In this document: positions 10,381 to 57,357 of the stretch, piece by piece | How positions within the stretch are numbered: position 1 is the first letter of the stretch | Layout of the letters: every line of letters starts with the position of its first letter | Translations under genes and position numbers: made by a program | Source: Raillietiella orientalis | Lineage: Eukaryota | Reading direction: 5' to 3' | DNA length: 64,000 nucleotides | NCBI GenBank assembly: GCA_036172245.1 | Contig: JAYWIR010000003.1 | Span: forward strand, 1,116,001 to 1,180,000 | The notes under the pieces: model-generated | Seen by the model: only the letters and a program-made list of their open reading frames with translations | What the model was told of the DNA's origin: nothing | The model's database searches: none

Positions 10381-10390
10381 GATCCCCTAC

Positions 10391-13899: not shown

Positions 13900-14045
13900 G
13901 AAGCAGAACTTGAGTGAACCCCCAAGGACTTCAAAGTGAACAGTGGTACTATAGTGTGTGAATGAGATTGTGTGCATGAAAATTGTAGTGTGAATGAAAA
14001 AATTGAAAAATAAATTTACCCCACCCCTTGTGGGACTTGGGAAAA

Positions 14046-14240
14046 ATCGACGTAAGCGGACACGGCAGGCGTGCCGTGGCAGAGTTCGGCAGGGTGGCCA
14101 AAGTTGCCCTGTACGCTCTCAGCACCAACTCGAAGTGGGTACTAAAAAGCAGGGACTCGGGATATCGCCCTGCCTCATCCTGCGGCACACCAGCACGCCG
14201 AACACGTGTAGTCCCCTAAAAAAGAGCTTCCCCAAAGGCT
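14046..14240 (-). mobile_element. Upstream continuation of the family-B RT interrupted by the 8315-14045 element (includes the right TSD copy, 14046-14061)
   Basis: Minus strand reads ..LLFSTHFELVLRAYRATLATLPNS..PAVSAYVD, matching the uninterrupted copy at 5370-5560. Confidence 0.88.
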
Positions 14241-15589: not shown

Positions 15590-16250
15590 TTCATTTTCGG
15601 AGCGCCCTCCTCTCCCTTATGCAGGAGTTTCGGTACTGATTCTTGCATTCTGGTATTCTTTGTACTTGCGCCTCCCAATTTTCCGTCCCTCTCAGTCTTT
15701 CCCAATTGCCGCTTTCTTTCCGCGTGTTTGCACGTCTTCGTACGCGAAGTTTCCCTGCTTTCTGCAGCTTCAGAAGAGAACCGTTTTCCACCCAAACTTT
15801 TGATTTCTTCTCCGAATCGATGAGGCTTCTCGATATTTGAGTATTTGGTGGTGTCCGCCTAGTATTGAAGTGTTTCGGAGACTTTGGTGGCAGCTGATTT
15901 CTCCTTTTCGTGTTCCCATTCCCTTGCAACCCTTTCGCTCTGTTTATCTCTGTGAAAGAACGCAGTTTCTTGCGTACTTCGACGGTCTTCCAAGCTTTCA
16001 CTTCGCCCTTTATGCGACCGAGGTGGATCTCGACAGCACCGGCGAGCGGCACGAACGCCTTCCTCGTGAATCGACGATGCTTTCTTATGGCTTCCGTATG
16101 CAAATCGCTTCCCATGGACATCAAAGAAGAAGCGGGTACTGCACATTTCTATATCTGATGGCAGTCGCGAAGAAGGGTAGATGCATGCTTGAAAGGAAAG
16201 CATGGGGTCAGGTCGGGATCATTCTTTGTTGGGATTGCCGAGACCCTTTC
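15590..16250 (-). pseudogene. Possible degenerate ORF1 (gag-like) relic of a related element
   Basis: LPSDIEMCSTRFFFDVHGK...AARRCCR followed by a K/E/R-rich stretch resembles the post-RRM, knuckle and charged order of ORF1 at 8593-10380, but the Cys/His residues are eroded. By-eye only. Confidence 0.3.
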
Positions 16251-17415
16251 AATCGGTAGAACTCGCTTTCTGAAATTCCCACCTGTCGTCGTGCCTTCGA
16301 ATTTCCTGAGGAGCCTTCATGCTCTTCGTTCCTCTGGCGGTCTTCGTTTGCAGTTCGAGTCCCGCGACCTGCTGGAGGAGACAAAAAGGCCATCACAGGA
16401 TTCCGGTTTGATGGGGGATTTTTCCCTCGCATCGGATCAACACGCATGTTTCGAACGATCGACCCCTTTCGGGTGGTGTGCTCTTTGTCCGGTTTCCGGA
16501 AGCTTGCGGTTCGGGGCACCTGACTTTTATTTGTCAATTATAGGCTTGATACCGGAAACCAGCTTTTTATCGCTCGACTTTACACGGTGTGTTGAAAAAT
16601 GCAGTGGGTAAGATTAATGGATATTTTCCCAACCATTGAGGTTTCTCGTACGGTTTCGACTTGCCCGGGACATCACCGGAACAAGCACTTTGACGTGTGT
16701 TTTCAGTTGGCTCTTGCCTCGTTGCTGACTTCGCTGTTTTGTTTCGGCAGGAATAAAACTCTGTCAAATATGTTGTTGATTTCTTGTTTCTCTTTCTTTG
16801 GCGGCGCACATGCCCTTGACTGTGCACATTCGTGAATCCATTCATTATGCTATCTCTGGCGACAGTCAATCCGATCTGTTTGTCACTTTTCTCGAAACTC
16901 CGTCGGTATCCACGCACGGCCGCGCGAAGGATGCGCGAGATGTGGCTGAGGACTCCGTGCGCGATGCCAACCGCTGCATGCTCTCATCCCCAGGTGGAGG
17001 ATCCACGCCGACAGAATGGGATGGTTCATGAGTTTCCGGTCCTCCATGGGCCATGGCACCGATGGCGAGCGCACGATCTTCGGTTGCGGCATCGGTGGAA
17101 GCTGGAAACCGGATGCTTCCGTCGAGTGGTCGGGATGAGAACTCGGGACCCCAGAGTCCCTCCAGGAATCGAAGAGTTGGTTGTTCTCCAGGAATTATCC
17201 TCCGGTTTTTTAAGGGAAGGCGTCTCCCCGCTAAGGGACACCCTCGTCCGCGTGCCATCGAGCCCGTTGATGCCTCTGCAGAGTGTCACAAGGGCGCTAC
17301 TCCTTTCCATGAGGGGAACGCTCTCAAGAGAAATTCAGGCCAAGGAATGACGCCATCGTAGTCCTACTGCGAATCGCAGCCACCGCGTCCATGAGCAACA
17401 GGGCAGGAGGAGAGC

Positions 17416-20400: not shown

Positions 20401-23400
20401 CGCGTCGGGACGGCACTCGGCACGCAAAGTAGCGCGTGGGACGGGCTCGGCGTCCCGCGCTTCCCGAAATCGTGCGACAACTTTCCTCCCGGTTACTGCT
20501 TGGAGGCGCACTGCTTACTAGTCAACGAAACGAGGATGTTAAGGAGGTCACGTCCCGAAGTCTGCAGCCGCAGGTCACCGCCACGAACAGGCTCACGAAT
20601 GCTCAGCGCTGATGACCCTCCTGCTTCACCTTCCCGCGTTATACATGACCGGGTGCGTCCGTCGCATGCGCGTGGCATCCGAAGTCACGTGGCGGATGGC
20701 AGGACCGCGCTGCACCACACGCGCTCGCTCTTCGGCTAATCGCACGAGTCGCATTCGCGATGCTCTTGAGACGTGCTCTGCGCGCTCAACTGTCGAGGGA
20801 GTCGACGCCACTTCGCAAGGCGGTCGAGCTGTCCCATGGCGTCTTCGGGTGGCAACAGCGCTTTTCACATCGCCAGAGCCATCGTCTTCTCGTACAGGCT
20901 GCGCGTCTGGCTGCGCTGCCGCGCCCTCTCCCAGCTTCTACGTCCGCCATCACGCGGACCATCCCGGCGGCAGGGACGCTGACGGTGTCCTAGACAGGCA
21001 AGCAGCGTGGCAACGCGAGGTGAAGGGAAGCGCGGCGCGCATCCTCGCGTCCCACGCGGAACTTTGCATGGGCGGTCAGCGCTGCTGCGATGATCCGATG
21101 CATCCAGGAATATCAAACTCAGATAATTGATAGATCCACTTTTAAGGAGATGTTGACGTTTCGCGAAAAGCTGCCTCTGCGCAGCTGCTCCTCCTTCCCG
21201 CTGCCTGGTCCCCGGCACGTCGGTCGCTCGCCGCTCTCTTCGCTGCTGCGTGCGTCGCCCGGGCACACGGCGCGCCACTGGTTCCAGATGGCGACGTCGG
21301 AAACGCGCATCTCAACCTCGAAGCATTTTTCCTCCCGGTCCCGTGGATCGCACGCAAAGCGCCGGCCGGGGGCCACTGCAACGCAGACGAGTCTCCATCC
21401 CACGTCGAACTGTCGCGCCTTCAGGCATGCTCACCTCGGACGCGGTCCCCCCCGGAAAGGGCCGTCCATCCATCCCCTCCGTGCATCTGCAACCATCCTT
21501 CCGCGGTTGTCGCACAAACCGAGCCCTCGGCTGCGCCGCCAGCTGCTCAGCACGGCACCACGCGAGCTGCATCTACCGGCGTCGGTGGACGACGCGAAAG
21601 CCGACGCCGCCTGCACCACCATCCAGCTGCGAGCCTGCGGGTGAGCGGAGCAGCGCGCGCCGGTCGGCGACCTGGAGCCCGACGTTCGAGCTCGCCAGCG
21701 GCTTAAGTGGTTTAAGCCGGCGGCTTCCTCTTGCCGGTTGTCTCGCGCTACTGCTTCCCACCTTCCTCCACCGCACTCGTCGCCCGCTCCTGCTCACGGT
21801 CGTCAGGGTAGGGAACTGGGGTCTTGGAAGTCGCAGTTGATTTGCGTAAAGCCTTCGACAGAGTCGACCGGGCGCTTCCCCGGAGACATCCGGAAGGCAT
21901 GGGCTGTACAACCTTTCAAGGGCTTATCTGCGACGCTCAACTTGCTTCTGAGAGCTCATGGGTCTGTCCTTCGTAGTTGAGGACGTGGAAAGCGCGCAAC
22001 CGAGGTACGGCGTGCTACAGAGTGACAGTCAGAGCCCCCTCCTCTCGAATATCTGTTTCCAGTAGATGCAGAGGGCATGCAGGCAGACTCTGCCTTCTTT
22101 GAAGAGTTCGTACTTCGCTACGCCCGCGATATACGCTGCTAAACGCGGGTCCAATGCAGCGTCAGCTCCCGCAGCGTCCCTCGGGCTTAGAAAACGCGAA
22201 ACGTTCCTCAAGCGAAACGGAGAAATGAGGTCTGTGGTTGGTGTGGGTCTGGCGTGGGCTCGGCGACGAAAACGGATTTCTAGGGGTGCGTGTCTGAAAT
22301 TCCTCGGCGCCTCGTCTCAGGAATTCCCTTCACCGAAAGTGGGGTCCAACCGCCTTCAGAAGAGCGAGCTCGCGCACCATCTGTTGCAACAGGGCGAGCT
22401 TCCATTTCTGGAACGGCCCACGGTGCGAGTGCTCCACTCCCTGCGTCTTGTTTGTGCTACCGCCCCCGGCGAAGTTGACAAGCAGACCGACGACCACCTC
22501 CGCAAAGCCTTTTCGAGCACGGCGAGGTGCCGATTCCGCCAGAAGGACTTGAGTGCTCCTGCCTTGGGAGCGAACGATCCGACGACTTTGACGGACGGCA
22601 TTGGCCAGGTGGACGCATGCTAATCGCGAAGGACGCTCGTTCTTGCCGAGGCGGCGCCGAAGCCAAGTCCGGAGGCGCACAGTCATCCTACGGCGACTCA
22701 CTCATCTGACAAGGGGAGGCGGTGGGATTCCTTAGCACCCCGCGAACGGTATCCAAACGGAGGCCGAGTGCCCCTCTTACACGACTCTCGTCGTCGAGTG
22801 AGCTGCTCGAAATACCCCTGCAGGGTCTCGATTGGCCCCCACTGCTCCGGAACACCCACACTTCCTTACTGAACTGCTGGAGTCCGCGATACTGTATTTG
22901 CACTGGTGTCTCTCGTGCGGCGCTTCTCGTCATCATGGGATCCGAGCTGGAGAGGGGTGTGGACGCGAACTGCAGTAATTTCTGCAGAACGGGAATCTCT
23001 CCCGCAGCTGCTCGCGGATGGTGTTCCCCTTCGGACGTGATGGGAGCGCTCGGACGCGATCCCAGCCACCTGCAGAAGCAACTGTGAAAAGCATTCGGCA
23101 CCCTTGTTCGTACGTGATGTCCTGCCGCCGGCCGCATCCCTGGCAGCTCTGTGCTTCCTGCGAGGGATTGCAGCTGCCTGCAGCGCCGTCGAGACAGGCG
23201 ACGACGACAGCCTTGCTGCGGTCCGCTTTCTCTTGTCGTCATCGAAGAAACCCCATGTGGGAAGCATGAACTTGCCTGCATTCTTGGAAGGACATCCATG
23301 CAGAGGACGTTCCGAAGCAGGCAGCCTTCCTTTGTCGAAGCTTCGACTTGCATTCACTTTCTTTTATTTTCTTCATTTCCTTTTCTTCTTTCTGACCGTT

Positions 23401-23625
23401 TCCTTCGTAGCTCCTGTCTTCGGCCTGGTCGCCGGCATCGCTTTCTCGGCAGGGACCTCGATCCGAGGAGCGTGGTCCAACGCGTTTACTCGCTCATCTT
23501 CGAAACGCTTCTTGTGCGCCTGCCGACCCTGCGAACATTGGGTGAGCGGAAGGAGTGCCCGATCGGCGAGCCGTGCCCCCGAAGGAGAGCGTGGGCAGAA
23601 AGAAGCTCCCTTGCTGCGGTACTGC
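17416..23625. repeat. Right arm of the large inverted repeat (reverse complement of 1-6210)
   Basis: Mirror translations are identical apart from a few substitutions (DDLLLL/DDLLFL, APTTA/APATA, VGATW/VGETW, GRVPP/GRGPP). No net indel across 6.2 kb. Confidence 0.97.
23095..23240 (+). mobile_element. Short fragment of a family-B-like ORF2 C-terminus (mirror copy at ~386-531, minus strand)
   Basis: LFVRDVLPPAASLAALCFLRGI matches LFVRDALPPAASLAALCCLRGI at ~24085-24150. Confidence 0.75.
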
Positions 23626-24528: not shown

Positions 24529-27500
24529 GCGAGCCGTGCTGCAGCCGCGACACGAACGGGAACGCGTCGATTGGCGGGGCGTCGGAAACGGATACGGAGG
24601 CGTGGGCATCTCTGGACGGCACGGCAACGCGCTAGGACGTTGCCACCCCTGTTTTTGACGACGAGGACCGTTTGGAAGGTGGAGGACCGATTGCTGCGAT
24701 CGGTGTGGTGCACGCATCCAGCGTTTCGGGAGGAGGCAGGACGGGCTCTCACACGCTCTGGCATCGAAGCATGCTGTGCTAGCACCCGGCAGCTGCAGCC
24801 TTGCGCAATGGCACGGAAGATGGAGCCACTAAAAGCATCCAGGCTTCCCGCGTAGTGAACGAAAAAGCCGATTAGCGGATGCAAATGGAGTTGTCGCAAC
24901 TACGCCGCCGTGCGGAGAGCCGTTGTGGCGTGGGCGACCTTTCCATCCAGGTGACAACTGCCCTCGGCTGACGACCGGGTCACGAAGAAGGGTGCCAGCT
25001 GCACTTGATTGATGATCTTCCTGGAGTGCGGATGTCGAGCGCCCTGCACAACCGGGAACAAAGGTCCCAGGTGGAAGACGCCGGATAAATTGGAGAGCGA
25101 GAAGCAGGACGGGCGTGGTTGCTGCTCTTCGAGTGAAGGCAAGAACTTGGCAAGGAGCTGCTTGCGTCGACCGACTTTCTCTGGAACCACTTTTCTCTTC
25201 TTCGTCCGAGGTCCACTCAGCTTATGGACGGCCGCGTGAGAATGTCCGCGAAGTGTGCGATGGCGATGCTTTTGCTGTTGGCGGCCTTGGTGCTCGGTAG
25301 GTTGCGCGACTGGCGCCGGTCGCTTGCGCCATCTCAGACCAGACCAGCGACGGCACGTGCGGGAAAAGCGAACGACGCGTTCCTGCTGGGTGCAGGAACT
25401 TGCGTGCCTCCCGGCCGGATTCACGCCTGCATCGGCCCGGAGGCTAGCGCCATCTGCTTCCGTCTCGCACGGGCTCCTACCGCCCTGCGGCGCTTTTGCG
25501 ACGCAGGCCGACCGCTGGTTGTCGCGCGTCCGTCGCTTGAAGCGCGGAAGGCGCGTGTCGGTCGGCCTGCATGCCGACACACCGCGAGCTCGACTCATTC
25601 CTTTTCTCTGACTTTCAGTGTTGGTGACGATGGAGGTAAACTGCGAGGAATTCGTGAGGTGAGCCGCGCCTCTGCATCTGCGGCGGTTCGAACGCAATCG
25701 GCGTTCGACGTCACGCCCCAGGGTGGGGGAAGCGCCATGCGACGGCTTGCCCTCAGGGCGCACGGCGTCTCGTTCACGACGATCCGTGCGCCAGGCACGA
25801 CCCAGCGAGCCGATGTGCTGCGTGCGTTCTCTCTCGGATGGTCCTCTGCGCATCTGACGTTTCCTTCGTGCGCTTCGAAGCGCGTTCGTGCGTGGTGATG
25901 AAGTTCGCGACGCCACGCCCCCGCACGCGTGGTTCGCGAAGAAAGCCTTGTGAAGCGCCATGCGACGTTCGCTGCTCGTTCGCGCTCCTTGGATGCACGT
26001 CGCCTGCCTCCGGACAGAAGGAAGGACGCGAGCTCCCCCGCTGACGGCTCGGGAAGCCGTGGCTTCGCGTAGGAATAGGGGGTCACCCTCGCTCGGAGAT
26101 CCGGAACACCCTTGCGACTGCTAGGAATCTTCTCGGCACGCCCTCGGGCGAACGACAACTGCGCGCCGACAACTTGTGCAAACGGAACGATGCAGTATCC
26201 GGAAACACCCTTTGTATCGACCGTGGTTTCACGAACGGGCTGCTGAGTGGATTGCTACCGGTGAACCCCTGGAGGCGCAACGAGATGGCTGAGCGTTGAA
26301 AGGCGGCCTTTTTGCTTCTCGGACATTTCCCGCTTTGGGATGCTGGAGGGACAGCTGCTCGCTTTCGCCAGAGGAACGGTGGACTGACTGCTGGTGTTTT
26401 CTCAGGGGCGGCAACCAGGAGATGATGGTTGATTCAAAGTACTCGTTTCGAGGAGGCTCCATCCGTGATCGAAAACGTTGCATCACAATTGCGGACTGCC
26501 CGCCGGGCAGGAAGTGCCACTATGGCGTATGCACAAATTATCTTCCCTGACGAGGTGAGGCGTGTTTGTTGTCGGCAAACGAGATGTGCCAAGCTGGAGT
26601 CTCCCTGATGCGCAGCAACTTTTCAGGAAACTCCCCGAAATTGTGCGATGGTCGCAGACGGCTTCATCAACTGTGCAATCCGCGGGATTCCTTTAAACTG
26701 TGCCTTCCTCTAGGAGGTGCTCGTCACTCGGGGGAGGTCACAATGGATGAACAATAAAGAAAGATAGATGGATGCGCATGATTCTGGAGGGTGTCCAAGG
26801 GGGCCAGTGTCCACCGGAAGTGCCGAAGAGTCTCCCGGGACGTATTGCAGCTTCCGTGAAGCCCCAGGCTGTCTTCGCTCCGTGTGCGACTCTGCTGGAT
26901 GCTGCAGCGCGCCACTCCTGCGTCCCGGACCGAATCCCCTTCGCAACGATCGTGATGTCGGCGCCGGTGGCCGGTGCGCGCAAGATGCTTCGTTTCCTCG
27001 CTTGCACACGCTCACCCTGCGTTCTGCCTTCCCTTTTCTTTCTGCGCTTCACGCCGCTGCAGGCTTCCGGCGTTTCGATGGGAACGCGACTTCCGCACAT
27101 GCAGCCGAGCAGACCATGCGACGCAGTGACTTGCGTGCTGGCTGCAGCTTCCACCTCCATTCTCTCTGTTGTTGGCTTCATAGTGTTCAGTTCGTGGCAC
27201 ACGAGGACGCACGAAACACACAAAACAAAAACTGGCGTTCCAGGAGCGAAACGCACGCACTTGCGTGCCCGTTCAACGCACCCCGTCGTGGGTGGTGCGC
27301 GAAGGGAAGGCATGCGGATCGTCAGCGCTGAGCTTTCCTGCCCATCGGACCAGCCGCTCCAGACTGCCAGACCCGTTCCTCGGCCTACAGGCCTTGAGGT
27401 CCTCAAGGAGGCGGGTGCACCCGTGCATGAAGAAGAAGCTGCTGCGAAAGAACCCGCGGAGAAGCTCTTCTGCTAGCCACGCCCCCTTTGCAGTTGGGAG

Positions 27501-27759
27501 GAATCGCGTGTAAGCAGAACGGACATTCGAACTCGCGGACCGATCTCTTGGGCTCGTCCCAGTCGTCAGCTCACGTCTGCCGAAGCCACGGCGGAACTGG
27601 CGGGGATGCTCCTCAGCATCACTGGCGCACGTTTCTTTTTCTTTTTTTCAAAAAGAGGCCAAGCTGGTGGCGACAAGAATCCCTGGGGATAGCTGCAAAC
27701 GGTGCATGTGCCTAGCGGCAATCCACCGCACAGCGGCGTCAGCTCCTTACAGAAAAAGA

Positions 27760-28160
27760 GGTTTGCGACCTTCTCGACGCTTCCCGGCGCGTTGCAGAGC
27801 CACGCCAGACGAAAATTTGCGGTTGCTGTTCCCCTGGGCGGTGAGACATTCGGCGGCGCAGTTCCTTTTGGTGCTCGCGTGCGCATCGAAATGGTGGGGC
27901 TGCTGTCGGCTCTTGGGTTTCCCATGTCGCGGCGCTAAGCGTAGGGCTCCTCGGACGCTTCCCGTTCACGATGCTGTGTGCAGCACGCGCGTGCCTTACG
28001 CCTTGAGAACGCGGAGCAGCTGCCACAGGGAACGCCGGGATCTGCTCGGCTGGTGCGCGCGTCGGCGATGCTGCTTCCCTGGAAACCGACGGAGCTGGGA
28101 GCGCAAAAGACAGGCGAATGCCTTCCGGTAGACGAACTTGCGTTCTTCGAAGCTGCCGTC
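27760..28160 (-). pseudogene. Degenerate RT N-terminal region downstream of BAF-like copy A; homologous to ~35230-35600
   Basis: RGTATANFRLAWLCNAPGSVEKVANL ~ EGNVPASFRSARMRLLPEGGDLRKLTNW. Visible nucleotide similarity to 35340-35580 (tcggcgatgctgcttccctggaaa / tcggcggtgctgctcccctggaaa). Confidence 0.45.
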
Positions 28161-28266
28161 CGCCTTCGCTCACAAAGAGGACGGCAGGGGTGGTGACGAG
28201 CGGAAGACTCGCCCCCGTCGGGTACTTCGGTGCTGCGAAACTTTATTTCAAAGTCCGAGTTCGGAG

Positions 28267-28668
28267 TCAAAATGGCGGGGGCACTCTGCCTACGTCAGGA
28301 ATAAGGTGCAGAGGCATCCTCACAGCCATGACCAGCATCGAAAAGAAGATCATGCGTGCGTTGTTCATGTAATCGAAAGATTCGTCGCCGAGGAGTTCGC
28401 AGAATTCCGTGATAAATTGAAACATGTCGTACTGGCTTCCGGCAAAGAGGACGAACATATCTGCGGCAGTACTTATGCCGTGATGATAAAGGATGGGCAT
28501 CATAAAACTCCGCGTTCCAGGTATCGTTTCCGCGTCGGCTTCGAGGTCATTGCGTGCGTAGAAACTTCGGAACTTTTCGGAAAGGAATTCTATCTGGTTC
28601 TCCGGATCCTGTATTACTGCAGCCAGGAATTTCACGAACTCTGGCGAAGTGACGAATTCACGATTCAT
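28267..28668 (-). CDS. Divergent barrier-to-autointegration factor (BAF)-like protein, copy A (133 aa), intronless and intact
   Basis: LSEKFRSFYARNDLEADAETIPGTRSFMMPILYHHGISTAADMFVLFAGSQYDMFQFITEFCELLG aligns without gaps to human BAF residues 3-68 (recalled sequence), with identities at S4, K6, R8, F10, A12, E17, G25, L34, G38, A42, F49, D55, F59 and G68. Paralogous to 35669-36022. Confidence 0.72.
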   Translation of the reverse strand: MNREFVTSPEFVKFLAAVIQDPENQIEFLSEKFRSFYARNDLEADAETIPGTRSFMMPILYHHGISTAADMFVLFAGSQYDMFQFITEFCELLGDESFDYMNNARMIFFSMLVMAVRMPLHLIPDVGRVPPPF

Positions 28669-29049
28669 CGTCTTCCCAAGTTCAAAGGGCAACGAACAAC
28701 GTTTCGCGATGAAGTGCTTGGCTGTGTTTCAATGCTTCGAATTCCTGCCTCTGTGAAGGGAGGGTGAGTGGGGGGAGAAGGCAATTCCCAGGAGGAGAGG
28801 AAGGCGAAATGGAGGAGAGAGAAGGACGGGCGCGGTTCCACTATTCGAGGAGACTTTCTGGTTGTCTGGGTAACCGATTGCTTATGTCCACTTCCTTGCA
28901 AGCGTCTCATATCTTTCGAGATGATTGCCCTTCCGCAGACCAAGGCGTTTCTTCTCAAAAATAGTTTCGTGTGGTGGCACTGTGCTTGCGACAAGGGGTG
29001 AACCTTGGCCACCTCGTCGCGCGTTTCACGCCGACTCATTCTCCCCCTG

Positions 29050-29620
29050 CACTTCTGCGTACCCTCCCAACATCCCTGGTCCGGTGATTCCGACGTGCGT
29101 TGCAGGGGAGACCCCGGTGCAATATCAGCAGCGTCGACTGCTGCCATTTCAGGGGAAGGGTGGTCGTGCATCGTAACTGCTCCGTGCGGCGTGGAAGTCC
29201 ACGTGGTTTGTCGCCCGGTTTCTGCGGCCCATTCGCTACGTGGAATAATCGCTTCGAGTTTTTGTGGAAAAGCGCGTGTTTGGACCACCCGATAAGATGG
29301 TAACGCACGGAGATGGCCAACTTTCCGGCACGCGGTCCGCAGCGGTCCCAGCCGGCAGGGAAGGCGGTAAGGGAAAACCGAAAACATGAGATAAGGAACG
29401 AAAGAAAGGAAGGGAGAATCTTCCATTCAGAGGGAGGCGGGGGGCAGAGGAAATGGAAGAAGGGATCGCCGCTCGCCGCAAGGCGTCCTCTGCGTCTTAT
29501 CCAGGACGCTGATGAGATTGCTCCGCATGTCGCCCGGGTGGCGCCATTTCGTGGCGGTCCGAAAAAAGACTTCCGACCTGCGAATGCGGAGAGGGGGCGG
29601 AAATGGCACTGCGCCCGCAA
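29050..29620 (-). mobile_element. Two fragments of family-B-like ORF2 3' regions
   Basis: FFRTATKWRHPGDMRSNLISVL (~29480-29570) ~ FLRIATRWPHLGNLQKDLVGIL, followed by a pyrimidine-rich UTR. TLPLKWQQSTLLILHRGLPCNARRNH (~29080-29165) ~ ILPLKWQESSLLWGHWGLPCNARRFH. Confidence 0.8.
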
Positions 29621-29739
29621 GATGGGGGGCATCCTGCGAGCGGAGTTGCGGGGAACAGGGTACAGTTGGGGGGGTGCTGGACGGCGCGTTCAATTGGCTG
29701 ACGCGCGTTCCACCGCCTCCGTGTCCAAATAGATTCTTC

Positions 29740-29934
29740 TCAATGAGAAGTTTCTGGAGTTTGCCCCGGAAAAATTAGGAATCTTACAGGTGTTTTCGAG
29801 TCATCTGCAAAGTCATTGCGTGCGTAGAATCTGCAGAACTTTCGTGAAAGGGAATCTTTCCGGTTTTGTGGATATTTTACTACGTATAGTACGATGTTCA
29901 AGAGATATCGAGAAGTGACGACTTCCGGGAACAA
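29740..29934 (-). pseudogene. BAF-like copy C, truncated/frameshifted; TTG at the position of the start ATG
   Basis: EVVTSRYLLNIVLYVVKYPQNRKDSLSRKFCRFYARNDFADD matches copy A EFVTSPEFVKFLAAVIQDPENQIEFLSEKFRSFYARNDLEAD; the frame stops shortly after. Confidence 0.75.
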
Positions 29935-30460
29935 AATCTTGCGCAGTTCCAAGGGCAGCAAAGAACTTTTCACGATGAAATGCCTGGTTGGATTTACATG
30001 GAATTTTCTCACGCTGTCAAGGGGAGCAATTTCCGGTTGAGACAAGGCGAAAATAACAGGAGAGAGGAGGAAGTAGGAACTTTAACCACTGTTCGGATGA
30101 GCTTGCTTCTTTCCTGGGTTATCCATTATTCAGGTCCACCTCCGTGGAAGCGATCTCCATCTTTCGATGTGATTGCCTCGACGGCGGGTTATTATCCCTC
30201 TCCAGGGTAATGTTGCCACAAACGTGAAATCCAATTGAAGGCCAGAGGCTTCTTGCTCGAAAATAGTACGGTAAGCCTTCCTGTTAGCATGGTGACCAGC
30301 TTGCAGCATTGACCTCAACTAGGTCTCCTCATCACGCGTTTTCCAGCCATTATGGTGAACAACTCTCGACCACAAAGCGCGTAGAGATTCACCAGTAAGA
30401 CGGTGGTGCATTCACTGCGCGCGCGAGGGGAAAGTACGACGATGTGATGATGGAGCACAT

Positions 30461-31153
30461 TGGATGATCCTGCAGTCCGGGGAGGTGCCATGCCCATCCG
30501 GAGAAGTGAAGGCGCCGGGCTGCAGCGTTTCCAACAGGACCATCGCGCCACTGCTCCACCATCTTTGACGGTCTCCACGGAGTGGGCAACTCTCGGGATC
30601 AGGATTTGCATCAATGGTCGGCCTATCCAAAAGGTGGTCCGCTCCCACTCTAGTGAACGGACGCTCCGCTCTCGCACGTTGCGTGCATTTCATTCAAGAG
30701 AGATCGCGCAGGCAACCGTGGCTGGCTTCCCGCAGCTTCCGCTTTCGATCGATCCAGCTGCGTACTCTGCGAGTGCAGCTCACCCTCTTTTCGCCAGCAG
30801 TTGCGTTTCTTCTTCAAGGCAAGCCGGATGAGTGCGCACCCTCCGGAGATCACTTTCGAACTCCACGAGGCTCGTGGAGAACGACCGAAGCGAGAGGAGT
30901 GCATTCTGAGAGTGAGTGCGTGCCTCGTCCCTGGAGTGGCGCACCTCTTCTGCACGAAGCAAACGGAAGTGTTCCTCGCGGCAGCTGCTTTTCCCGCAGC
31001 GTGAACCCCGTGTCTCGTTGCTGAGGTCTTTCCATGCGCTCGCTGTTCGTCCGGAAAGAGCCGCTGCAACGCCCAGAACGCGTTCTCCGAGGTCGCGTGA
31101 GTCCGTGCGTGACCACAGCTCGTGCCTTGCACCTCGCGGAAACCGCGCAGCAG
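30461..31153. repeat. Left arm of a 693-bp inverted repeat (partner 33288-33980)
   Basis: Mirror ORFs with coordinate sum 64441 (30614..31024+ / 33417..33827-) and identical translations. Confidence 0.95.
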
Positions 31154-32004
31154 AAGCTTCGACGTGCCGTGCGTTGCAACGACCTTTCGGAGTGTACGCA
31201 CTCATTGATGTGGGGATGCGCTTCTCCCGATGTGCGACCCGATTCCCCTGACTGGATGAATGTATTCGCTTGGGGTCGCTTCCGTGGGACGACAGTCGGT
31301 TGGTTCTTCCGTAGCCATGCCGGAGCGATGGTAGGTGGATGGCCAGATGTTAAGATGCTGCGTGATGACAGAAGGGGAAGGTGTATGAGGTTAGGTAAAA
31401 ATGGATGCAGCATGCTTGGCGGGAATTCGTGCAGCTGGAGGAGAGGCAGAAATGGAGCAGGATTTGTGAGACGCTTGCGCAAGATCAAGAGGCGGAAGGT
31501 CAGACGAACTCATGAGGCGTAGTTGCAGTTTCTGTACACAGACCCAAAGGAACAGACCCACTGGAATGACGTCACTGTTAACGAGATGCACCTGAAAGAC
31601 TGTCAGCTGCTCTCGCTGGGCGTTCGAATCCATTTGCGCGTCAATCCATGCGGACCTTCGAACCTTCTCGTCGTTTTGCGATTTTAGTCAGCAGTCGCAC
31701 CGTTGAATGGCGCGCGAGCTCTCCGTGTGCCCGGGCGACGCACGCAGCCGCGAAGAGAGCTGCGGGCGACCGACGTGCCGGGGACCATGCAGCGGGAAGG
31801 AGGAGCAGCTGCGCAGAGGCAGCTGTTCGCGAAACGTCAACATCTCCTTAAAAGTCGATCCATCAATTATCTGAGTTTGATATTCCTTGATGCATCGGAT
31901 CATCGCACCAACGCTGACCGCCCACGCAAAGTTCCGCGGGGGATACGAGGATGCGCGCAGCGCTGCGCTTCACCCCGCGTTGCTGCGCTGCTAGCCTCTG
32001 AGGA

Positions 32005-33180
32005 AGCTCTTTTTTAGGGGACCACACGTGTACGGCGTGCAGGTGTGCCGCAGGATGAGGCAGGGCGATAGCCTGAGTCCCTGCTTTTTAGCACCTACTT
32101 CGCGTTGGTGCTGAGAGCATACAGAGAGACTTTGGCCACCCTGCCGAACTCTGCCACGGCACGCCTGCCGTGTCCGCTTATGCCGATGATCTGCTCCTGC
32201 TCCCCATGTCCGCCTCGGTCTCAGCTCTGGAACATTTCTTCGCGATGTTGAGCATCGGAACAGGACTTCGGGTGAGCAGCACCAAGTCTTCGGTTGTGCC
32301 AGTTGGTGCGACGTGGGCTGGGCGCCCTGATTGGATCCTCCTGGGGATCCCCACAGCTAGGTACATGAAGTACCTCTCCGTTCCGTCGAAGGACTTCTGT
32401 CTGACAGAAGCCTGGTCAGGTCATCTCCAAAAAGTGGAGCAGGGATCAGCCCGTTCCTGAGAGACAGGTTTCCCTGGCAGCATTGAGCCGCTGTGTGGAA
32501 CACGTTCGCGACGCCCATCCTCCGTCTCCTGCTTTTTATTTCTTCCGTCCACTCCGAGTTCAAATGAATGGACTAAGGACTTCCTGCGCATCGCCCTGTG
32601 GGGCAACGGAAGGTCCCGAGTTATTCTGATGGACTTGTGTGCTCCGCGTTGGGACGTCGGTCTTCGCCTCCTGACGCTAGAGCGGATGGAGATTCAGTTG
32701 CGATAGCGAACCATCGCCATCGCAGCGAAGTACACCCGTTGATGCGTTCCGCTGCGCCTCCTACTCGCCGTATATGCGGAACAAAAGGGTTTGCGTCTCG
32801 ACGTTTGTGCCCCGGCCGGAAGATCGTGAGATGCGGCCTCCTTATCGAACGAATAGCCACACTGGCGAAGGAATACACTTGGATGGTGCGTGGCCCTGCC
32901 AATTCTAGCGCGTGGCTAGAAGAAACAGTTGACGCGTAAGCGAAGGTCCTGGAGTGTCCAACCAGGAGTACGTGGGCGGCAATGACCCCCCAATCTACGG
33001 CGATGCCTTCCCTGGGGAGGGCACTTGGCAGCATCCAGAGGCCTTGTCGGCAAGTCTCCTGCTAGATCGCAGTAAAACAGAGATGTTAAACGGATGGCCC
33101 ATGAGACAGCTGGCAAACGCCGCGACCGTAAGAGTCCTTCCGCTAGAACGCAGCGCAACACATGCTGGCGCATACACAAA
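32005..33180 (+). mobile_element. Degenerate family-B RT 3' half
   Basis: RQGDSLSP.., SAYADDLLLLPMS, GTGLRVSSTKSSVV, MKYLSVP, NSSAWLEET; multiple stops and frameshifts. Confidence 0.88.
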
Positions 33181-33287
33181 TCACCCACATTAGCGATTCC
33201 GGCTGCGCCAAGAAAAAAAAACAACAGGTGAACCTGGCTGCCCACGAAGCGTCGTTTCACAGTGAAGCATTCTGACAGCACTGCACC

Positions 33288-33980
33288 CTGCTGCGCGGTT
33301 TCCGCGAGGTGCAAGGCACGAGCTGTGGTCACGCACGGACTCACGCGACCTCGGAGAACGCGTTCTGGGCGTTGCAGCGGCTCTTTCCGGACGAACAGCG
33401 AGCGCATGGAAAGACCTCAGCAACGAGACACGGGGTTCACGCTGCGGGAAAAGCAGCTGCCGCGAGGAACACTTCCGTTTGCTTCGTGCAGAAGAGGTGC
33501 GCCACTCCAGGGACGAGGCACGCACTCACTCTCAGAATGCACTCCTCTCGCTTCGGTCGTTCTCCACGAGCCTCGTGGAGTTCGAAAGTGATCTCCGGAG
33601 GGTGCGCACTCATCCGGCTTGCCTTGAAGAAGAAACGCAACTGCTGGCGAAAAGAGGGTGAGCTGCACTCGCAGAGTACGCAGCTGGATCGATCGAAAGC
33701 GGAAGCTGCGGGAAGCCAGCCACGGTTGCCTGCGCGATCTCTCTTGAATGAAATGCACGCAACGTGCGAGAGCGGAGCGTCCGTTCACTAGAGTGGGAGC
33801 GGACCACCTTTTGGATAGGCCGACCATTGATGCAAATCCTGATCCCGAGAGTTGCCCACTCCGTGGAGACCGTCAAAGATGGTGGAGCAGTGGCGCGATG
33901 GTCCTGTTGGAAACGCTGCAGCCCGGCGCCTTCACTTCTCCGGATGGGCATGGCACCTCCCCGGACTGCAGGATCATCCA
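33288..33980. repeat. Right arm of the 693-bp inverted repeat
   Basis: Reverse complement of 30461-31153; boundaries ctgctgcgcggtt (33288) and ggatcatcca (33980). Confidence 0.95.
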
Positions 33981-35668
33981 TCCAATGTCGCTGCACTTCT
34001 TGGGTCTCCCACCGCAACCGCAATCAGGGCACCACCTTCCAAACGGTCGCGTCTCTACACCCTTGCGCACCAAGGGTAAGCATCATGTTCCACAGACATT
34101 CGGGTGTCCACGGGACCCCTCGGACACGATAAAAAGAAATCACCACGTCATCAGTGCGAACGCTGTGTCTCAGCGGATTCGCGTCTCCGGTCCAGGTGGA
34201 GAGGAACTTCGTCATCTCCGACTGCGATGCACTGCGAAGCTTCGCACTGGTCCGGAACGAGTGCAGCTTCCGCGTGCAGTCCCGGAGCGGACGAGCGCGG
34301 GACTGGAGGATGCACAAACGCCGTCTTCCTTCAGATCTGCCGTGAAGAAACGCACGCTGCTTAGTTACGCTCCTTGAAGGCAGACGGTTCGAGGAAACGC
34401 AGCCAAACGCGAGGCCCAAACTATGCCTTGGACTTACGCAAACGTGGGTGGCAGCATGTCTTTGGCGGAGCAGGCGAACTGCATCCAATCTCCGCGGGCT
34501 CCCAAACACAAGCAACGAGTCGAGCAGTACGAAGGTGCACCGTCTGCGCACACGCCTGCGGCGCCGAGACGTTCCGAACCGTAAAGAACGCTCAGCTCAA
34601 GAGCTGCACCTCCCACTGCCGCTTGCATTTCGTGAATGAAGCGATCGACTGTCGGATATCCTGCCGAAATCACTGAGTGGTCTTAGAGGGTGCCGACACG
34701 GAAGAGAATGCTTCAGGCGATGTCCAACTTCTTCCTCTCAAGCCACACCTGACGACACCGCAATCGCTTCCCTCTCTGCGTGAGGAAGTTGTCCCTTTTG
34801 CGCTTAGAGTAAGCCGCCGTTGCTTGACGATCGCTCGACAGAACGAACTTCTAGTTGGTGAGGTGATGGTTCCGTTTCTTTTCCGATTCCCGCCGCTCCC
34901 TATGCGCCTGACTCAACACATTGGGCTGACGTGTGGCAAGGGGGAAACCGAAAGCATGGCCGGTGCCTGCGGAAACGCCAACCGAGGTCTGCTGCAGCCG
35001 CTTCTTCGACGTCGTTCAGTAAGTAGAGCATGTTCTGGTTGCTCGCTTGACGAAGGAGGCTGCAGCAGTTGGATCGTCGTGCCCGGTTCTCGGAGGAAAT
35101 CCATGCCCACTAACCTAGAGGTGGACGGCAGGCGATCGTTGCAAGCGGTGCTGGAACCCGACCCGAATGCATCGTCCAGCGGGGTCGCCTCCTACAGCGA
35201 AGGCGTTTTCCCACCCTCTCTCAACTCCGGGACGCCTTCGAGTTGCCCAGCCAGGGGGAATGTTCCCTTGGGCAGGGAGACCTCTACGCGCGGCTCCCTT
35301 TGTAGGAGTGTGCGCATCCAAGTGGTGGTCCTGGCGGTGTTTGGTGTCGCACGTTCTTGCTGAGAACTCAGATGTGCTTAGATGCCCCTGTGCACAATGT
35401 CTTGTTCAGCAGATGCTGTCTTTCCTCCAAGGGTACGCGAAGCTGCTGCCACAACGGACGCTGCAATCGCCGTCGCTGTTGCGCGTATCGGCGGTGCTGC
35501 TCCCCTGGAAATAGACGCAGCGGCATACGCAGAAGACAAGCGAATACATTCCGCCGGTCTTTACTCGAAGCTGCTGCTCACCTTCACTTCACCTTCTGGT
35601 GTGGACGCTTCCTTTGACCAAAAATTTATTTTACTCTCTGTGATTACCCGTTCTTGCAGCCAGCACCG

Positions 35669-36022
35669 TCAAGCCCTCCACAGTTCGTACAATAGCATTG
35701 AAAGGTATATGATTTTTGCGTTTGCTAGGTATCTGTACTCGCGATCTGCAATTAGTGCACAGAGTTGTTGGACGAACCGTTCCATGTTTCGTTCGCTTCG
35801 TACATAAATTTGGAAGATTTGCCGCGCCTGGAAGATTCCAGCAGAATCAAGCCTGGACAGCATTCTTCTTGTCATTCCAGATATCATGTCCACTGGATGA
35901 TCTAAGTGGCCTTTACGCCAGAAGTTTTGAAACTCATAAGAAGAGAAACGTCGTCTGTTCTCAGGATATTCCAGTACTTCCATCAAGGCATTCAGGAACT
36001 CCACCGTGGTAACCGTGTTCAT
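35669..36022 (-). CDS. Divergent BAF-like protein, copy B (117 aa), intronless and intact
   Basis: SSYEFQNFWRKGHLDHPVDMISGMTRRMLSRLDSAGIFQARQIFQIYVRSERNMERFVQQL aligns without gaps to BAF 3-63 (S4, F10, P19, V20, G25, L34, G38, A42, F59, L63). About 37 of 116 positions are identical to copy A by hand count, with one 2-aa gap. Confidence 0.72.
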   Translation of the reverse strand: MNTVTTVEFLNALMEVLEYPENRRRFSSYEFQNFWRKGHLDHPVDMISGMTRRMLSRLDSAGIFQARQIFQIYVRSERNMERFVQQLCALIADREYRYLANAKIIYLSMLLYELWRA

Positions 36023-39000
36023 CTTCTTGTGAAATGGGAAAAGCAACGGGAAGTTTTTGGCGACGAAGACAGTCGCTGGATTTGTGTGGAAATGCTGCTA
36101 GGTGCCACTGGGGGAAATTCCCAGAAGACGAGGTGGAGGAGATGGCAGGAGAAAGAAGGACGGTGGAGGTTTAAGTATTCGGGGTGGCGTGCTTGTTGTC
36201 CAGGTTACGGATTGAGGTCCACCTCCGTGGAAGCGATCTCCATGGTACGAGATGATTGTCTTGTCGACGGGTTGCCGGTCATGCCGCGCAACCCACGCGG
36301 CCCTACCGGAGACCCAAAGGGTTCCTGCTCGATAATGGTTCTGTTTTTTTCTGTTTAGCATGATGATCAGCTCGCGGCAGTGGCCTGATTGCGCGTGCAG
36401 CGCCATCCGCACCGACGCCACCTTCTCGACCACTGAGCTCACCGAATCTTGCCCGAAAACACCAACCGGGATCCCAGTCACGCACGAGTGCAATTGCGGA
36501 AAAGGGGGAGCGGGAGCTATAGGCGAGCTATGCTCCTGTCTGACACCGAAGGCTGCGTATCTACGTAATGGCATATCCCGGCCAAAGGCAAGGTCACGCA
36601 AGCATTGAGCATCGTGCAGAGCTCCGTGGACGGTTCGAATGGCAGAAAGGATTGTCCATTCGAATGGCGTCCCATGGCGGAGCGTTCGCTCCTAAGTGGT
36701 CCGAGCATGCACGAGAGGTAAGGAGTCTTCGGATGTTGCGGGATTCGATGATAATAAAACGGATGTTAATCACGGAAGGGGTTTACAGTCTTTGCGTCAT
36801 CATCTCTTCTATAGGATTGGTGTCACCTCTTGTTGTGCATGCTGACGGCAATTTGGTTGGTGAGATTACTAAGGCTATATGAAGTTGAAACCAGCAAGAT
36901 TAATGATATACTTCATTCGTGTGAATTTGATGTTTTCAGAGTGGAATCGAAACTGAAAGATATATATTCTTTATTTCGTTATATAGGTTTTGTTTTACTA
37001 ATTCTCTTTTGACCCCCAATGTCATTTATACATTTGGTTTTTCAGGAATTCTTTCCAAGTTATTGGATTTTCGCGGTTGCCGTATTGAAGGCAATCCATC
37101 TTGGTGATTATGATTTTCAGGAATGAAGTACAGATTATAATTTCATTGCTTGGTTTTCAAAATTTTGGAATTCTCCTCTTGGTGGATAGCAGGACACGTG
37201 TGCGATCCCCGCTCTTCCCAATGGAAACGCGAGTAATGGAACAGATGTTACCATGTAAAATTAAGGCTGGGTTGTGTAATTGAGGGTGAATAAAATAAGT
37301 AACGTTGGGATATGTAGAGAAATTTTGTTCACGAAGGTTTGAAGTTATTCAAGTTTTGGAGCAGAGAACTTTATGACCTGCTGTTGTAGCTGTGATGGAG
37401 GTCGACTGTTTACGGTTTGTTGGGAGTGACGTGCCCGGAGGGCGCATCCGGAAAACGGTTTCGGTTGCGAGCCCAAGTTTCTGTGGCATCTGTAAAAAAA
37501 AAGAAAAGGAAAATGGACCTGAGAAACGGATAGGTCGCGAGTTTTACTTGATTTAGTGTTGATGATTTCTGTAGTGGATTGGTTGAAACAAGAGCATTCG
37601 CGAGATTCATTCAGCACATACAGATCGTACTTTTATCGAAAAGTAAGCTACAGTAATAGGAAGTAGGAAGGTAGATTTTTTCGAATTATTTCAAGTAGCA
37701 CGACAGCCAGGTTGAGTGTATTGTTTGCATCATGTAGTTTTAGCCAAGGGGTACATGCAAGTAATAGAATTGGGTGCCTTTGTCAGTGATGCTGCATAGG
37801 TTTGTACCGTGAGAGCACATTTTTTATGAGGTTGCAGTTGTGTGAATGAACAGAGACAATCTGTTTAGTAAGAGGTGGGATGAATGCAGTTTCGTACCAT
37901 GAAAGCATTGATTGTGTGTTCTTTAGTGTGTCACACAAATTATGATCAGTTCTGATTGGAGTTGTGTAATAGGTCAGTTTGGAGTTTTATTATTTTTACC
38001 CGTTTGGCCAAAGAAGGGTACAGAGTGTTTGTTTATAGAGTATTGACTTGTGGATCTGTTGTGGTGGAGGAAAGATCTAACTGGCTGTCAAGGTTGGATT
38101 TGAGAGGAAAACAAGGTTTATGAGCGTTATAATTTTGAGAAGCTAGTGGGTATTAAGTAATGCACATTGCAGAGCATCGATGATTATTAGAAATGCATGG
38201 ATATTATTTATTTCCCTGTTATTGTAGTCTTTCATTTTGATTAGGGCGAATACAGAACTTTGGTTATTGGTTTATTCTGCTGCAGCCACAGCATATGCGA
38301 AGTACATACCAACTGCATCACATAGATCCATAAAATACTATTTAGTGTTTCCATTGTGCCCTTCAGAAAATTCACAAATGTAGAAATTCTTGCATTCACA
38401 AAATTATGTTTGCCTTGAACTTTAAAAATGTACGTTTCCAAATTCATTTGAGCCTCCAGAAAGGCATTAAATGTATAATACAAAGCATAAAAAGCACTTA
38501 AACTGTTGTGGAAATAAGATGCATCGTTTAAATTTATCTGCAAAGATATCGTAATTTTTTTCACGCTGAAAAAATTGTTGAACTAATCTAATCACATACA
38601 TTTCCTAATTTTGTATTTTATGTGCCACTTGCATGTATACCAGATGTGCAGGCCACTGTATTAACTTGAAAATTTTCTTAACTACACAAACTTTACAACT
38701 GACTTTATTTGGATAGCAGAAGGCTGGACATTTTTGAATTCTGATATCTCCAACAATTTTACATTATCTTTATAAGTATTCAGAAACAGCAATTTGTTTT
38801 TGATGGAAATGAAAAATGTTAGTCTTGCTAATATGGTGATAGTGACTTATTGTCAAAATATAATCCCAATGGAGTGACAAACTTTGATGGAGAAGCACAT
38901 TCATATGAAGTTGTTATCGTCAATGTTTGCTCTAACATGTTCTTTGGAATCCAGTAATCACAGGATTCCAATACTGAAAATACATCCTTCTTGCTGGTCT

Positions 39001-55995: not shown

Positions 55996-57357
<1,362 letters not shown>

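What the first reader, a model, noticed from the sequence alone, without database searches (positions are those of the whole stretch)
28267..28668. BAF-like ORFs stay intact while their retroelement flanks have decayed: signature of purifying selection
Copies A and B share only about one third of residues (hand count ~37/116), yet both keep ATG-to-stop frames with a single in-frame 2-aa gap and many conservative swaps (F/Y, I/L, E/D, R/K). The homologous flanks on both sides are frameshifted and full of stops. Inference: the proteins have been functional over a long period, i.e. domesticated genes or actively maintained cargo.
Basis: partly seen in the sequence, partly recalled or inferred. 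Interest (0 to 1): 0.7.

Follow-up and report, generated by a model that had tools for sequence, protein, structure and literature searches.

The report
Fast-evolving BAF-fold genes in repeat island
Two intact small genes and one broken copy, lying in a GC-rich repeat island of an arthropod genome, encode very divergent versions of the DNA-bridging protein BAF; their reading frames have been kept open even though the coding part has changed faster than the DNA around it.

Summary
The ORF at 28267-28668 (-), 133 aa (copy A), is real. It has an intact partner at 35669-36022 (-), 117 aa (copy B), with 37 of 117 aligned residues identical and one 2-aa gap.

"BAF-like" holds:
- The AlphaFold model of A matches the whole human BAF chain (Z 11.9-12.4, rmsd 1.5-1.9 Å; next unrelated fold Z 5.5).
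- B hits Pfam SAM_BAF below threshold (E 0.005, 17.8 bits; cut-off 25).
- B's nearest ESM-Atlas clusters are BAF.

Frame retention is unlikely under neutral decay (about 1-2% per lineage at the flank rate), and omega=1 is rejected, although dS is saturated.

The "decayed retroelement flanks" part fails:
- The flanks show no retroelement protein signal.
- They are better conserved (63-65% nt identity) than the ORF (49-51%).

The copies sit on a discrete unit of about 1.3 kb. A is acidic (pI 4.6) and B is basic (pI 9.2).

Best reading: a lineage-specific, fast-diversifying BAF-like gene family kept by selection. Whether it serves the host or is mobile cargo is unresolved, because no genome or RNA data were available.

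The parts
28267..28668 (-). Copy A: intact BAF-fold ORF, 133 aa plus TGA. N-terminal helical extension (res 1-24), BAF core (res 25-119), 14-aa tail. Acidic (pI 4.6).
   Evidence: frame; model pLDDT 77.7; BAF Z 11.9-12.4; pI
35669..36022 (-). Copy B: intact BAF-fold ORF, 117 aa plus TGA. Basic (pI 9.2).
   Evidence: frame; Pfam SAM_BAF E 0.0047-0.0072, below cut-off; model pLDDT 63.5; top 8 Foldseek hits all BAF; ESM Atlas BAF clusters 0.94; pI
29784..30315 (-). Copy A': dead copy. It keeps the upstream flank and the first ~48 codons (29791-29934). The ATG is replaced by TTG and the rest of the ORF and the downstream flank are missing.
27685..28998 (-). Repeat unit around copy A (about 1.3 kb): ~330 nt upstream flank, ORF, ~580 nt downstream flank.
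   Evidence: homology to B; none beyond the ends
35131..36386 (-). Repeat unit around copy B (1256 nt).
28780..28927 (-). Conserved upstream non-coding block (73% identical to B 36113-36258).
28009..28127 (-). Conserved downstream non-coding block (74.8% identical to B 35435-35553, ungapped). No codon periodicity of mismatches (8/9/13).
28242..28247 (-). AATAAA about 20 nt after the stop of copy A. It aligns with an AATAAA after copy B.
35625..35630 (-). AATAAA about 39 nt after the stop of copy B.

Best explanation
Copies A and B are real protein-coding genes of a small, lineage-specific family of very divergent BAF (barrier-to-autointegration factor) paralogues in an arthropod genome. Each is intronless and sits in a discrete unit of about 1.3 kb. 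It has its own start context (A at -3) and an AATAAA shortly after the stop.

Selection has kept the frame and the BAF fold. The 24-residue N-terminal extension specific to this family is the best conserved part of the protein. The BAF core has diversified so far that one copy is acidic and the other basic.

Inferred mechanism, by analogy with BAF and BAF-L: these are small chromatin or DNA-associated proteins. The basic copy B could bind double-stranded DNA through the helix-hairpin-helix surface. The acidic copy A more likely acts as a non-DNA-binding partner or modulator, as BAF-L does for BAF.

I read the locus as a resident gene cluster, with all three copies in the same orientation within 8.7 kb, that was later broken up by LINE insertions. 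It would be evolving under diversifying pressure of a kind compatible with genetic conflict.

Shown: ORFs, homology between copies, fold, frame retention, the divergence pattern. Inferred: expression, DNA binding, dimerisation, host-level function.
For: Fold:
- Model of A (pLDDT 77.7, pTM 0.71): the top 8 of 43 Foldseek PDB rows are all human BAF, TM(target) 0.81-0.87, rmsd 2.2 Å.
- VIA second look: Z 11.9-12.4, 86-89 of 86-89 residues aligned, model residues 25-119; next unrelated fold Z 5.5.
- Model of B (pLDDT 63.5): top 8 hits are again BAF, TM(target) 0.59-0.64.

Sequence and features:
- B hits Pfam SAM_BAF at E 0.0047-0.0072, residues 28-89 onto profile positions 4-65 of 88.
- ESM Atlas for B: BAF clusters score 0.94 and 0.93; 16 of 30 hits carry SAM_BAF.

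Selection on the frame:
- Neutral simulation: 447 of 20000 and 211 of 20000 runs keep the frame.
- omega=1 is rejected, LRT 14.0.
- NG86: pN 0.45, pS 0.64.

Gene-like features and layout:
- AATAAA is aligned after both stops, and both starts have a purine at -3.
- The three copies share one orientation.
- The N-terminal extension is 11 of 22 identical, against 26 of 95 for the BAF core.
- Charge flip: pI 4.6 versus 9.2.
- Flanks are conserved above the ORF (65% and 63% versus 49%; chi-square p 1.7e-4; pN exceeds flank p, binomial p 0.003).

Literature: BAF as an 89-aa homodimer binding dsDNA by an HhH motif, and BAF-L as a heterodimerising, weakly DNA-binding, tissue-restricted paralogue, come from passages of PMC13443024.
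Against: - No expression or population data could be obtained.
- Copy A alone has no Pfam hit and no usable ESM Atlas hit.
- Profile and single-sequence searches against PDB sequences did not retrieve BAF.
- A profile of A+B found 0 relatives among 1.84 billion representative proteins. There is therefore no orthologue evidence.
- GC3 of the ORFs (0.59 and 0.49) resembles the neighbouring LINE ORFs (0.59-0.68) more than the host exons (0.37-0.41). The flanks are GC-rich like the repeat island.
- The spacers between units are not homologous. This fits separate insertions of a discrete unit better than simple tandem duplication.
- dS is saturated, so omega is poorly determined.
- With only two intact sequences, the excess of ORF divergence over flank divergence could also come from constrained or gene-converted flanks.
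Confidence: 0.45

Rival explanations
1. The ~1.3 kb unit is a non-autonomous mobile or transduced element, and the BAF-like ORF is its maintained cargo. On this reading the divergence between A and B arose between element subfamilies while they were active, and selection acted at the level of the element. A captured BAF could, for example, protect element DNA from self-integration, or mimic or antagonise host BAF.
For: - The unit is discrete. All three copies share a 5' limit and the two full copies share a 3' limit, with unrelated sequence outside.
- The copies lie in a GC-rich nest of LINE fragments.
- Flank GC and ORF GC3 are like the LINEs and unlike the host exons.
- One copy is dead and truncated.
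- No homologue was found in protein databases.
Against: - No terminal inverted repeats above shuffled controls: score 8 against shuffle mean 9; 260 of 300 and 235 of 300 shuffles reach it.
- No LTR-like or target-site repeats were found.
- There is no poly(A) at the unit's end. The AATAAA lies mid-unit, and homology runs about 580 nt past it.
- No RT, endonuclease or transposase is in or next to the unit.
- All copies lie in one orientation within 8.7 kb.
- The protein diverges faster than the non-coding flanks, which is unusual for element-encoded proteins.
- Five literature searches found no transposon-encoded BAF.
Confidence: 0.3
2. The ORFs are relics. A once-functional BAF-like family is now dying, and A and B are still open only because inactivation is recent. 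A' shows the fate of the family.
For: - One of the three copies is already dead.
- The setting is a repeat nest with perfect palindromes and LINE insertions.
- No relatives are known.
- The protein divergence is very high.
Against: - Both intact copies keep the ATG, a purine at -3, the frame, the predicted fold and the AATAAA.
- Most of the A-B divergence must have accumulated under constraint.
Confidence: 0.12
3. The GC-rich 36.8 kb block does not belong beside the AT-rich arthropod DNA, because of assembly chimera or foreign DNA. The BAF-like genes would then belong to another organism or to an integrated large virus.
For: - GC drops sharply from about 58% to about 34% at ~36.8 kb.
- There are 100%-identical inverted repeats of 6226 and 693 nt, typical of fold-back artefacts.
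- The LINE is only about 30% identical to any database protein.
- One ESM Atlas cluster near B is half viral; this is a lead only.
Against: - The block contains only LINE pieces, a U4 snRNA and the BAF units. No viral or other cellular gene was detected.
- BFVD held no viral structure like the model.
- A scan of the IMG/VR viral contigs found no relative.
- GC-rich transposon islands in AT-rich genomes are ordinary.
Confidence: 0.06
4. The ORFs are chance open frames in repeat DNA, with no coding meaning.
For: GC-rich DNA gives many long spurious frames here. Examples are the 406-aa frame at 24903-26120 with low-complexity content and the 253-aa frame at 28665-29426.
Against: - The two frames are homologous at protein level (E 3.5e-19).
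- They fold into the same known domain.
- One hits the Pfam BAF profile.
- They show codon-position structure.
Confidence: 0.01

Closest known systems
BAF / BANF1 (Pfam PF02961 SAM_BAF)
   Same: The predicted fold matches over the whole 89-residue chain (Z 11.9-12.4, rmsd 1.5-1.9 Å). B matches the family profile weakly over positions 4-65. It is a small single-domain protein. From my own recall, not from a call: the glycine of the helix-hairpin-helix turn and an A-N-A-K/R-like motif near the last helix appear to be kept in both copies.
   Different: - Only 17-20% identity to human BAF in the structural alignments.
- Below Pfam's gathering score, and A has no hit at all.
- A 24-residue N-terminal helical extension, and a short insertion in the core (95 model residues against 89).
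- A is strongly acidic.
- Multi-copy, in a repeat island, with one dead copy.
- Canonical BAF is highly conserved, whereas these two share 27% identity in the core.
BAF-L / BANF2 (mammalian BAF paralogue)
   Same: It is a divergent BAF paralogue that heterodimerises with BAF, binds DNA weakly and is tissue-restricted (passages of PMC13443024). This is a precedent for a non-DNA-binding modulator such as the acidic copy A.
   Different: BAF-L is reported there as 53% similar to BANF1 and is a single-copy vertebrate gene. The copies here are far more divergent, carry an N-terminal extension and are arthropod-specific as far as can be seen. No orthology is implied.
ORF1 or accessory proteins of non-LTR retrotransposons
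   Same: A small nucleic-acid-binding-type protein encoded among LINE sequences.
   Different: - No ORF2 (endonuclease/RT) follows the ORF.
- The window's own LINE has a different ORF1, with CCHC knuckles.
- There is no similarity between the unit and the LINEs apart from a 66-68 nt piece outside the unit, at 29091-29158.

Membership tests
BAF family (Pfam PF02961 SAM_BAF) | Match to the family profile at or above the curated gathering score (25 bits) | tested here: not met
   B: 17.2-17.8 bits, E 0.0047-0.0072. A: no hit up to E 10.
BAF family (Pfam PF02961 SAM_BAF) | BAF fold over the whole domain | tested here: met
   A model: Z 11.9-12.4, rmsd 1.5-1.9 Å, 86-89 of 86-89 residues; next fold Z 5.5. 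Foldseek top 8 are all BAF for A and for B. These are predicted models built from a 2-sequence alignment.
BAF family (Pfam PF02961 SAM_BAF) | Homodimer whose interface forms the LEM-binding groove | tested here: inconclusive
   One complex-prediction job gave no verdict (see Tried and rejected). Needs experiment.
BAF family (Pfam PF02961 SAM_BAF) | Sequence-independent dsDNA binding through the helix-hairpin-helix motif | not testable with these tools
   Only indirect: the B core is basic (pI 10.2) and the A core acidic (pI 4.5).
Non-LTR retrotransposon (ORF1-type gene of a LINE) | Endonuclease/RT ORF2 downstream in the same orientation; 3' poly(A) or target-site duplication at the unit ends | tested here: not met
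   No RVT, Exo_endo_phos or gag hits in 124 + 66 flank frames. tblastn with the window's LINE proteins hits only 4135-19491. No terminal repeats. Homology runs about 580 nt past the AATAAA.
DNA transposon / MITE-like unit | Terminal inverted repeats at the unit ends | tested here: not met
   Best local alignment of the ends scores 8 against shuffle mean 8.7-9.0; 260 of 300 (B) and 235 of 300 (A) shuffles reach it.
Processed retrogene | Intronless copy ending in poly(A) just after the polyadenylation signal, with homology between copies limited to the mRNA | tested here: not met
   The ORFs are intronless. But A-B homology continues for about 580 nt beyond the AATAAA and about 330 nt upstream of the ATG.

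The most novel reading that the evidence does not exclude
These are conflict genes. A BAF-fold family, either carried by a mobile unit or deployed against mobile DNA, is diversifying its DNA- and partner-binding surface in an arms race. The basic form would coat or bridge DNA, and the acidic form would act as a decoy that poisons BAF dimers. The conserved non-coding flanks and the conserved N-terminal helix would provide common regulation and a common anchor. If the unit is mobile, this would be the first transposon-borne BAF: a self-supplied 'barrier to autointegration', or a BAF antagonist.
Probability: 0.15. Interest if true: 0.8.

Novelty: new variant of a known kind. Interest (0 to 1): 0.5.

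Why it matters
BAF is normally a single, highly conserved gene. It bridges DNA, rebuilds the nuclear envelope, restricts some DNA viruses and is used by retroviruses to avoid self-integration (passages of PMC13443024).

This locus shows something different: a cluster of BAF-fold genes that keep the fold but have diverged to 27% identity in the core, flipped net charge, gained a conserved N-terminal helix and sit among transposons. That would be a natural experiment in how far the BAF surface can be remodelled.

It could also point to an undescribed role of BAF-like proteins in genome defence or in the biology of mobile DNA in arthropods. Detection needed structure prediction and protein-language-model features, because no sequence search passed a curated threshold. 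Similar families may therefore be hidden in other genomes.

Tried and rejected
Searches for relatives that found nothing:
- The search for homologous proteins with A, near lengths: none.
- Profile of A+B against 1.84 billion representatives: 0 hits at E<=1e-3.
- Metagenome contigs: 410 pattern matches, none confirmed.
- IMG/VR viral contigs: 182 pattern matches, none confirmed.
- ESM Atlas with A: no usable hit.
- PDB sequence searches with the A+B profile and with B alone: no BAF. The best rows were an F-actin-capping protein (E 0.19) and Csa3 (E 1), taken as chance.
- BFVD viral structures: nothing below E 2.6.

Data that could not be obtained:
- No RNA holder listed and no run listed for 27900-29000.
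- No genome is held for this window.
- Earlier scan notes: none by place or by sequence.

Complex prediction: two copies of A gave no answer (score 0.00, controls not run). This is neither support nor evidence against dimerisation.

Ideas tested and rejected:
- Telomeric LINE array: no TTAGG repeats.
- ncRNA in the conserved flanks: no Rfam match at E<=0.1 in 27000-36900.
- A second conserved ORF in the downstream block: no codon periodicity.
- A further tandem unit after A: the alignment is not convincing.
- Further copies in the window: an HMM of A+B and tblastn with B find only A, B and A'. Two weak collinear hits at 42606-42925 show nothing BAF-like on translation.
- Unit ends: no TIR, no TSD.
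- dN/dS as a number: NG86 gives about 0.48 overall and 0.36-0.61 on the first 46-48 codons, but dS is saturated. The first ML run went to the boundary, and a grid showed the likelihood is flat for omega 0-0.5.

Literature: five full-text searches listed no paper on a transposon-encoded or arthropod-expanded BAF. I saw listings and abstract starts only. The exception is PMC13443024, of which I read matched passages.

Full report
**The observation**

Comparing A with all stop-to-stop frames of the window found it at 35669-36022 (-): 117 codons, 32.4% identity over 108 residues, E 3.5e-19 in that small database.

There is also a third copy, A', at 29784-30315 (-). It keeps the upstream flank and the first ~48 codons (19 of 48 residues identical to A). 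Its start codon reads TTG, and the frame breaks off into unrelated sequence. An HMM of A+B and tblastn with B find no further copy in the 64 kb.

**BAF-likeness**

Three largely independent lines agree.

- Pfam: B matches SAM_BAF (PF02961) at E 0.0047-0.0072 and 17.2-17.8 bits. That is below the 25-bit cut-off. Residues 28-89 map onto profile positions 4-65 of 88. A alone gives no Pfam hit.
- Structure: an AlphaFold2 model of A was built from the two-sequence alignment without templates (mean pLDDT 77.7, pTM 0.71). Its first eight Foldseek PDB matches are all human BAF (TM normalised to target 0.81-0.87, rmsd 2.2 Å). In the VIA second look, BAF chains score Z 11.9-12.4 with 86-89 of 86-89 residues aligned at 1.5-1.9 Å, covering model residues 25-119. 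The best unrelated chain scores 5.5. The weaker model of B (pLDDT 63.5) again has BAF as its first eight hits (TM 0.59-0.64).
- ESM Atlas: the nearest clusters to B are BAF-domain clusters (0.94 and 0.93; 16 of 30 hits carry SAM_BAF).

Against this:

- PDB sequence searches do not reach BAF.
- The ESM Atlas gives nothing for A.
- Identity to human BAF is only 17-20%.

I therefore call these BAF-fold proteins and very divergent homologues. They are not members by Pfam's own criterion.

**Context**

The window is two-part. Positions 1 to ~36.8 kb have 52-62% GC; the rest has 32-42%.

The AT-rich part holds host exons. An R3H/SUZ exon there is 52-58% identical to encore/R3HDM proteins of decapods, horseshoe crabs, lice and Hymenoptera, so the host is an arthropod.

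The GC-rich part is a nest of L1/Tx1-like LINE pieces. One is nearly complete, with a CCHC ORF1, an endonuclease and an RT. It is only about 30% identical to anything in the protein database.

**The unit**

A, B and A' share a bounded stretch:

- A 28927-27685 aligns with B 36258-35131.
- A' 30315-29967 aligns with B 36386-36055.
- A' 30177-29784 aligns with A 28929-28515.

Local alignments beyond these limits do not exceed shuffled controls. A supposed next unit after A does not align.

The unit is about 1.3 kb: ~330 nt upstream, the ORF, then ~580 nt downstream. An AATAAA lies about 20 nt (A) and 39 nt (B) after the stop and is aligned between the copies. Both starts have A at -3.

The unit has none of the usual mobile-element hallmarks:

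- No terminal inverted repeats.
- No terminal direct repeats.
- No Rfam match.
- No retroelement domain in 124 frames of 70 or more residues (23.0-37.6 kb) or in 66 frames of 35-69 residues around the units.

The only LINE-like bit nearby is 29091-29158, outside the unit. "Retroelement flanks" is therefore not supported.

**Selection**

From the alignable flanks I took p = 274/749 (JC 0.50) and 13 indel events. Nine or ten of those events are not multiples of three. I then let each ORF decay for half that distance. A frame of 110 or more codons with its ATG survived in 447 of 20000 runs for A and 211 of 20000 for B. That is about 2e-4 for both lineages together.

Other measures point the same way:

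- Identity by codon position is 0.50 / 0.60 / 0.44 (pos2 versus pos3, chi-square p 0.026).
- Nei-Gojobori gives pN 0.45 and pS 0.64, so omega is about 0.48.
- A pairwise ML codon model rejects omega=1 (LRT 14.0, p 2e-4). But it runs to saturated dS, and the likelihood is flat between omega ~0 and 0.5.

Purifying selection on frame and fold is thus supported, but a dN/dS value cannot be quoted with confidence.

**The twist**

The flanks are not the decayed part. In one and the same DNA alignment, A-B identity is:

| Segment | A-B nucleotide identity |
|---|---|
| Upstream flank | 65% |
| ORF | 49% (51% in the codon alignment) |
| Downstream flank | 63% |

The flanks contain blocks of 73-78% identity. 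The valley, at 31-43%, lies over residues ~37-70 of the BAF core.

The ORF mismatch rate exceeds that of the flanks (chi-square p 1.7e-4). Even the non-synonymous proportion (124 of 277 sites) exceeds the flank proportion (binomial p 0.003).

Between A and A', ORF and flank are equally diverged (67% each). B stands apart in the ORF only (51-54% against 64-65% in the flank).

There are two ways to read this. The flanks may be constrained or homogenised. Or the coding core may have evolved faster than its surroundings, which would mean diversifying selection on a retained fold.

Within the protein, the family-specific N-terminal extension is the best conserved part (11 of 22 identical against 26 of 95 in the core). 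The two proteins also differ in charge: A has pI 4.6 and net charge -9, while B has pI 9.2 with a core pI of 10.2.

**Mechanism (inferred)**

BAF is an 89-residue homodimer. Each subunit binds dsDNA non-specifically through a helix-hairpin-helix motif, and the dimer groove binds LEM-domain proteins. BAF-L heterodimerises with BAF, binds DNA weakly and is tissue-restricted (passages of PMC13443024).

By analogy, the basic copy B could bind or bridge DNA. The acidic copy A could act as a non-binding partner or modulator. The conserved N-terminal helix would provide a family-specific contact. None of this is shown.

**Host gene or cargo?**

For a resident host cluster:

- The copies share one orientation within 8.7 kb.
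- Each has its own poly(A) signal in the middle of the unit.
- Conserved non-coding flanks surround a fast-evolving CDS.
- The unit has no mobile-element hallmarks.

For mobile cargo:

- The unit is discrete, with coincident ends and unrelated spacers.
- It sits in a transposon nest.
- Flank GC and ORF GC3 (0.59, 0.49) are close to the LINE ORFs (0.59-0.68) and not to the host exons (0.37-0.41).
- One copy is dead.

I put the resident cluster at 0.45 and mobile cargo at 0.30. One window cannot decide. A genome-wide copy census, sister-species synteny and RNA data are the decisive tests, and none was available.

**Novelty**

Five full-text searches turned up no transposon-encoded or arthropod-expanded BAF family (listings only). 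No sequence relative exists among 1.84 billion representative proteins.

This is a new, very divergent variant of a known fold family. Its divergence pattern is unusual, and its biological level of selection is unresolved.

Noticed in passing
window 8318-8456 (+) and 8457-13899 (+): A full-length U4 spliceosomal snRNA (Rfam RF00015, 98.7 bits, model 1-138 of 138) directly abuts the 5' end of the nearly complete L1/Tx1-like LINE (CCHC ORF1, endonuclease, RT). This could be an snRNA-gene-targeting LINE or a U4-LINE chimera made by template switching. No other U4 piece was found in 1-27000 at E<=0.1.
   Followed up: partly
window 1-6226 vs 17400-23625; 30461-31153 vs 33288-33980: Two perfectly identical (100%) inverted repeats, of 6226 nt and 693 nt, lie in a region where other repeat copies are 70-96% alike. 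The second pair brackets a LINE 3' fragment (31723-33146) lying between BAF copies B and A'. They are either very recent palindromes or fold-back assembly artefacts.
   Followed up: no
window ~36750-36850: GC drops sharply from about 58% to about 34%, marking the edge of the repeat island against AT-rich host DNA. No element terminus was recognised at the junction.
   Followed up: partly
window 48242-48997 (-) and 56683-57357 (-): Host exons: an R3H + SUZ domain exon (encore/R3HDM-like, 52-58% identical to arthropod proteins) and a C2H2 zinc-finger exon.
   Followed up: partly
window 28665-29426 (-): A 253-codon frame upstream of copy A ends in a TGA that overlaps A's ATG (ATGA). It has no Pfam hit, and the arrangement is not conserved at copy B, so it is probably a chance frame in GC-rich DNA.
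   Followed up: partly
window 36205-36243 (-) and the matching part of 30128-30190 (-): The best conserved piece between B and A' (63 nt, 84% identical) holds a 12-13-codon upstream ORF about 180 nt before the BAF-like start. In copy A the corresponding ATG is shifted.
   Followed up: no
copy B (35672-36022 -), ESM Atlas result: Beside the BAF clusters, an unnamed cluster of ~111-residue proteints (score 0.93; members half viral, with Oomycota the commonest phylum) ranks third among feature neighbours. This is a lead that BAF-like proteins of similar length may exist in viruses. No sequences were available to test it.
   Followed up: no
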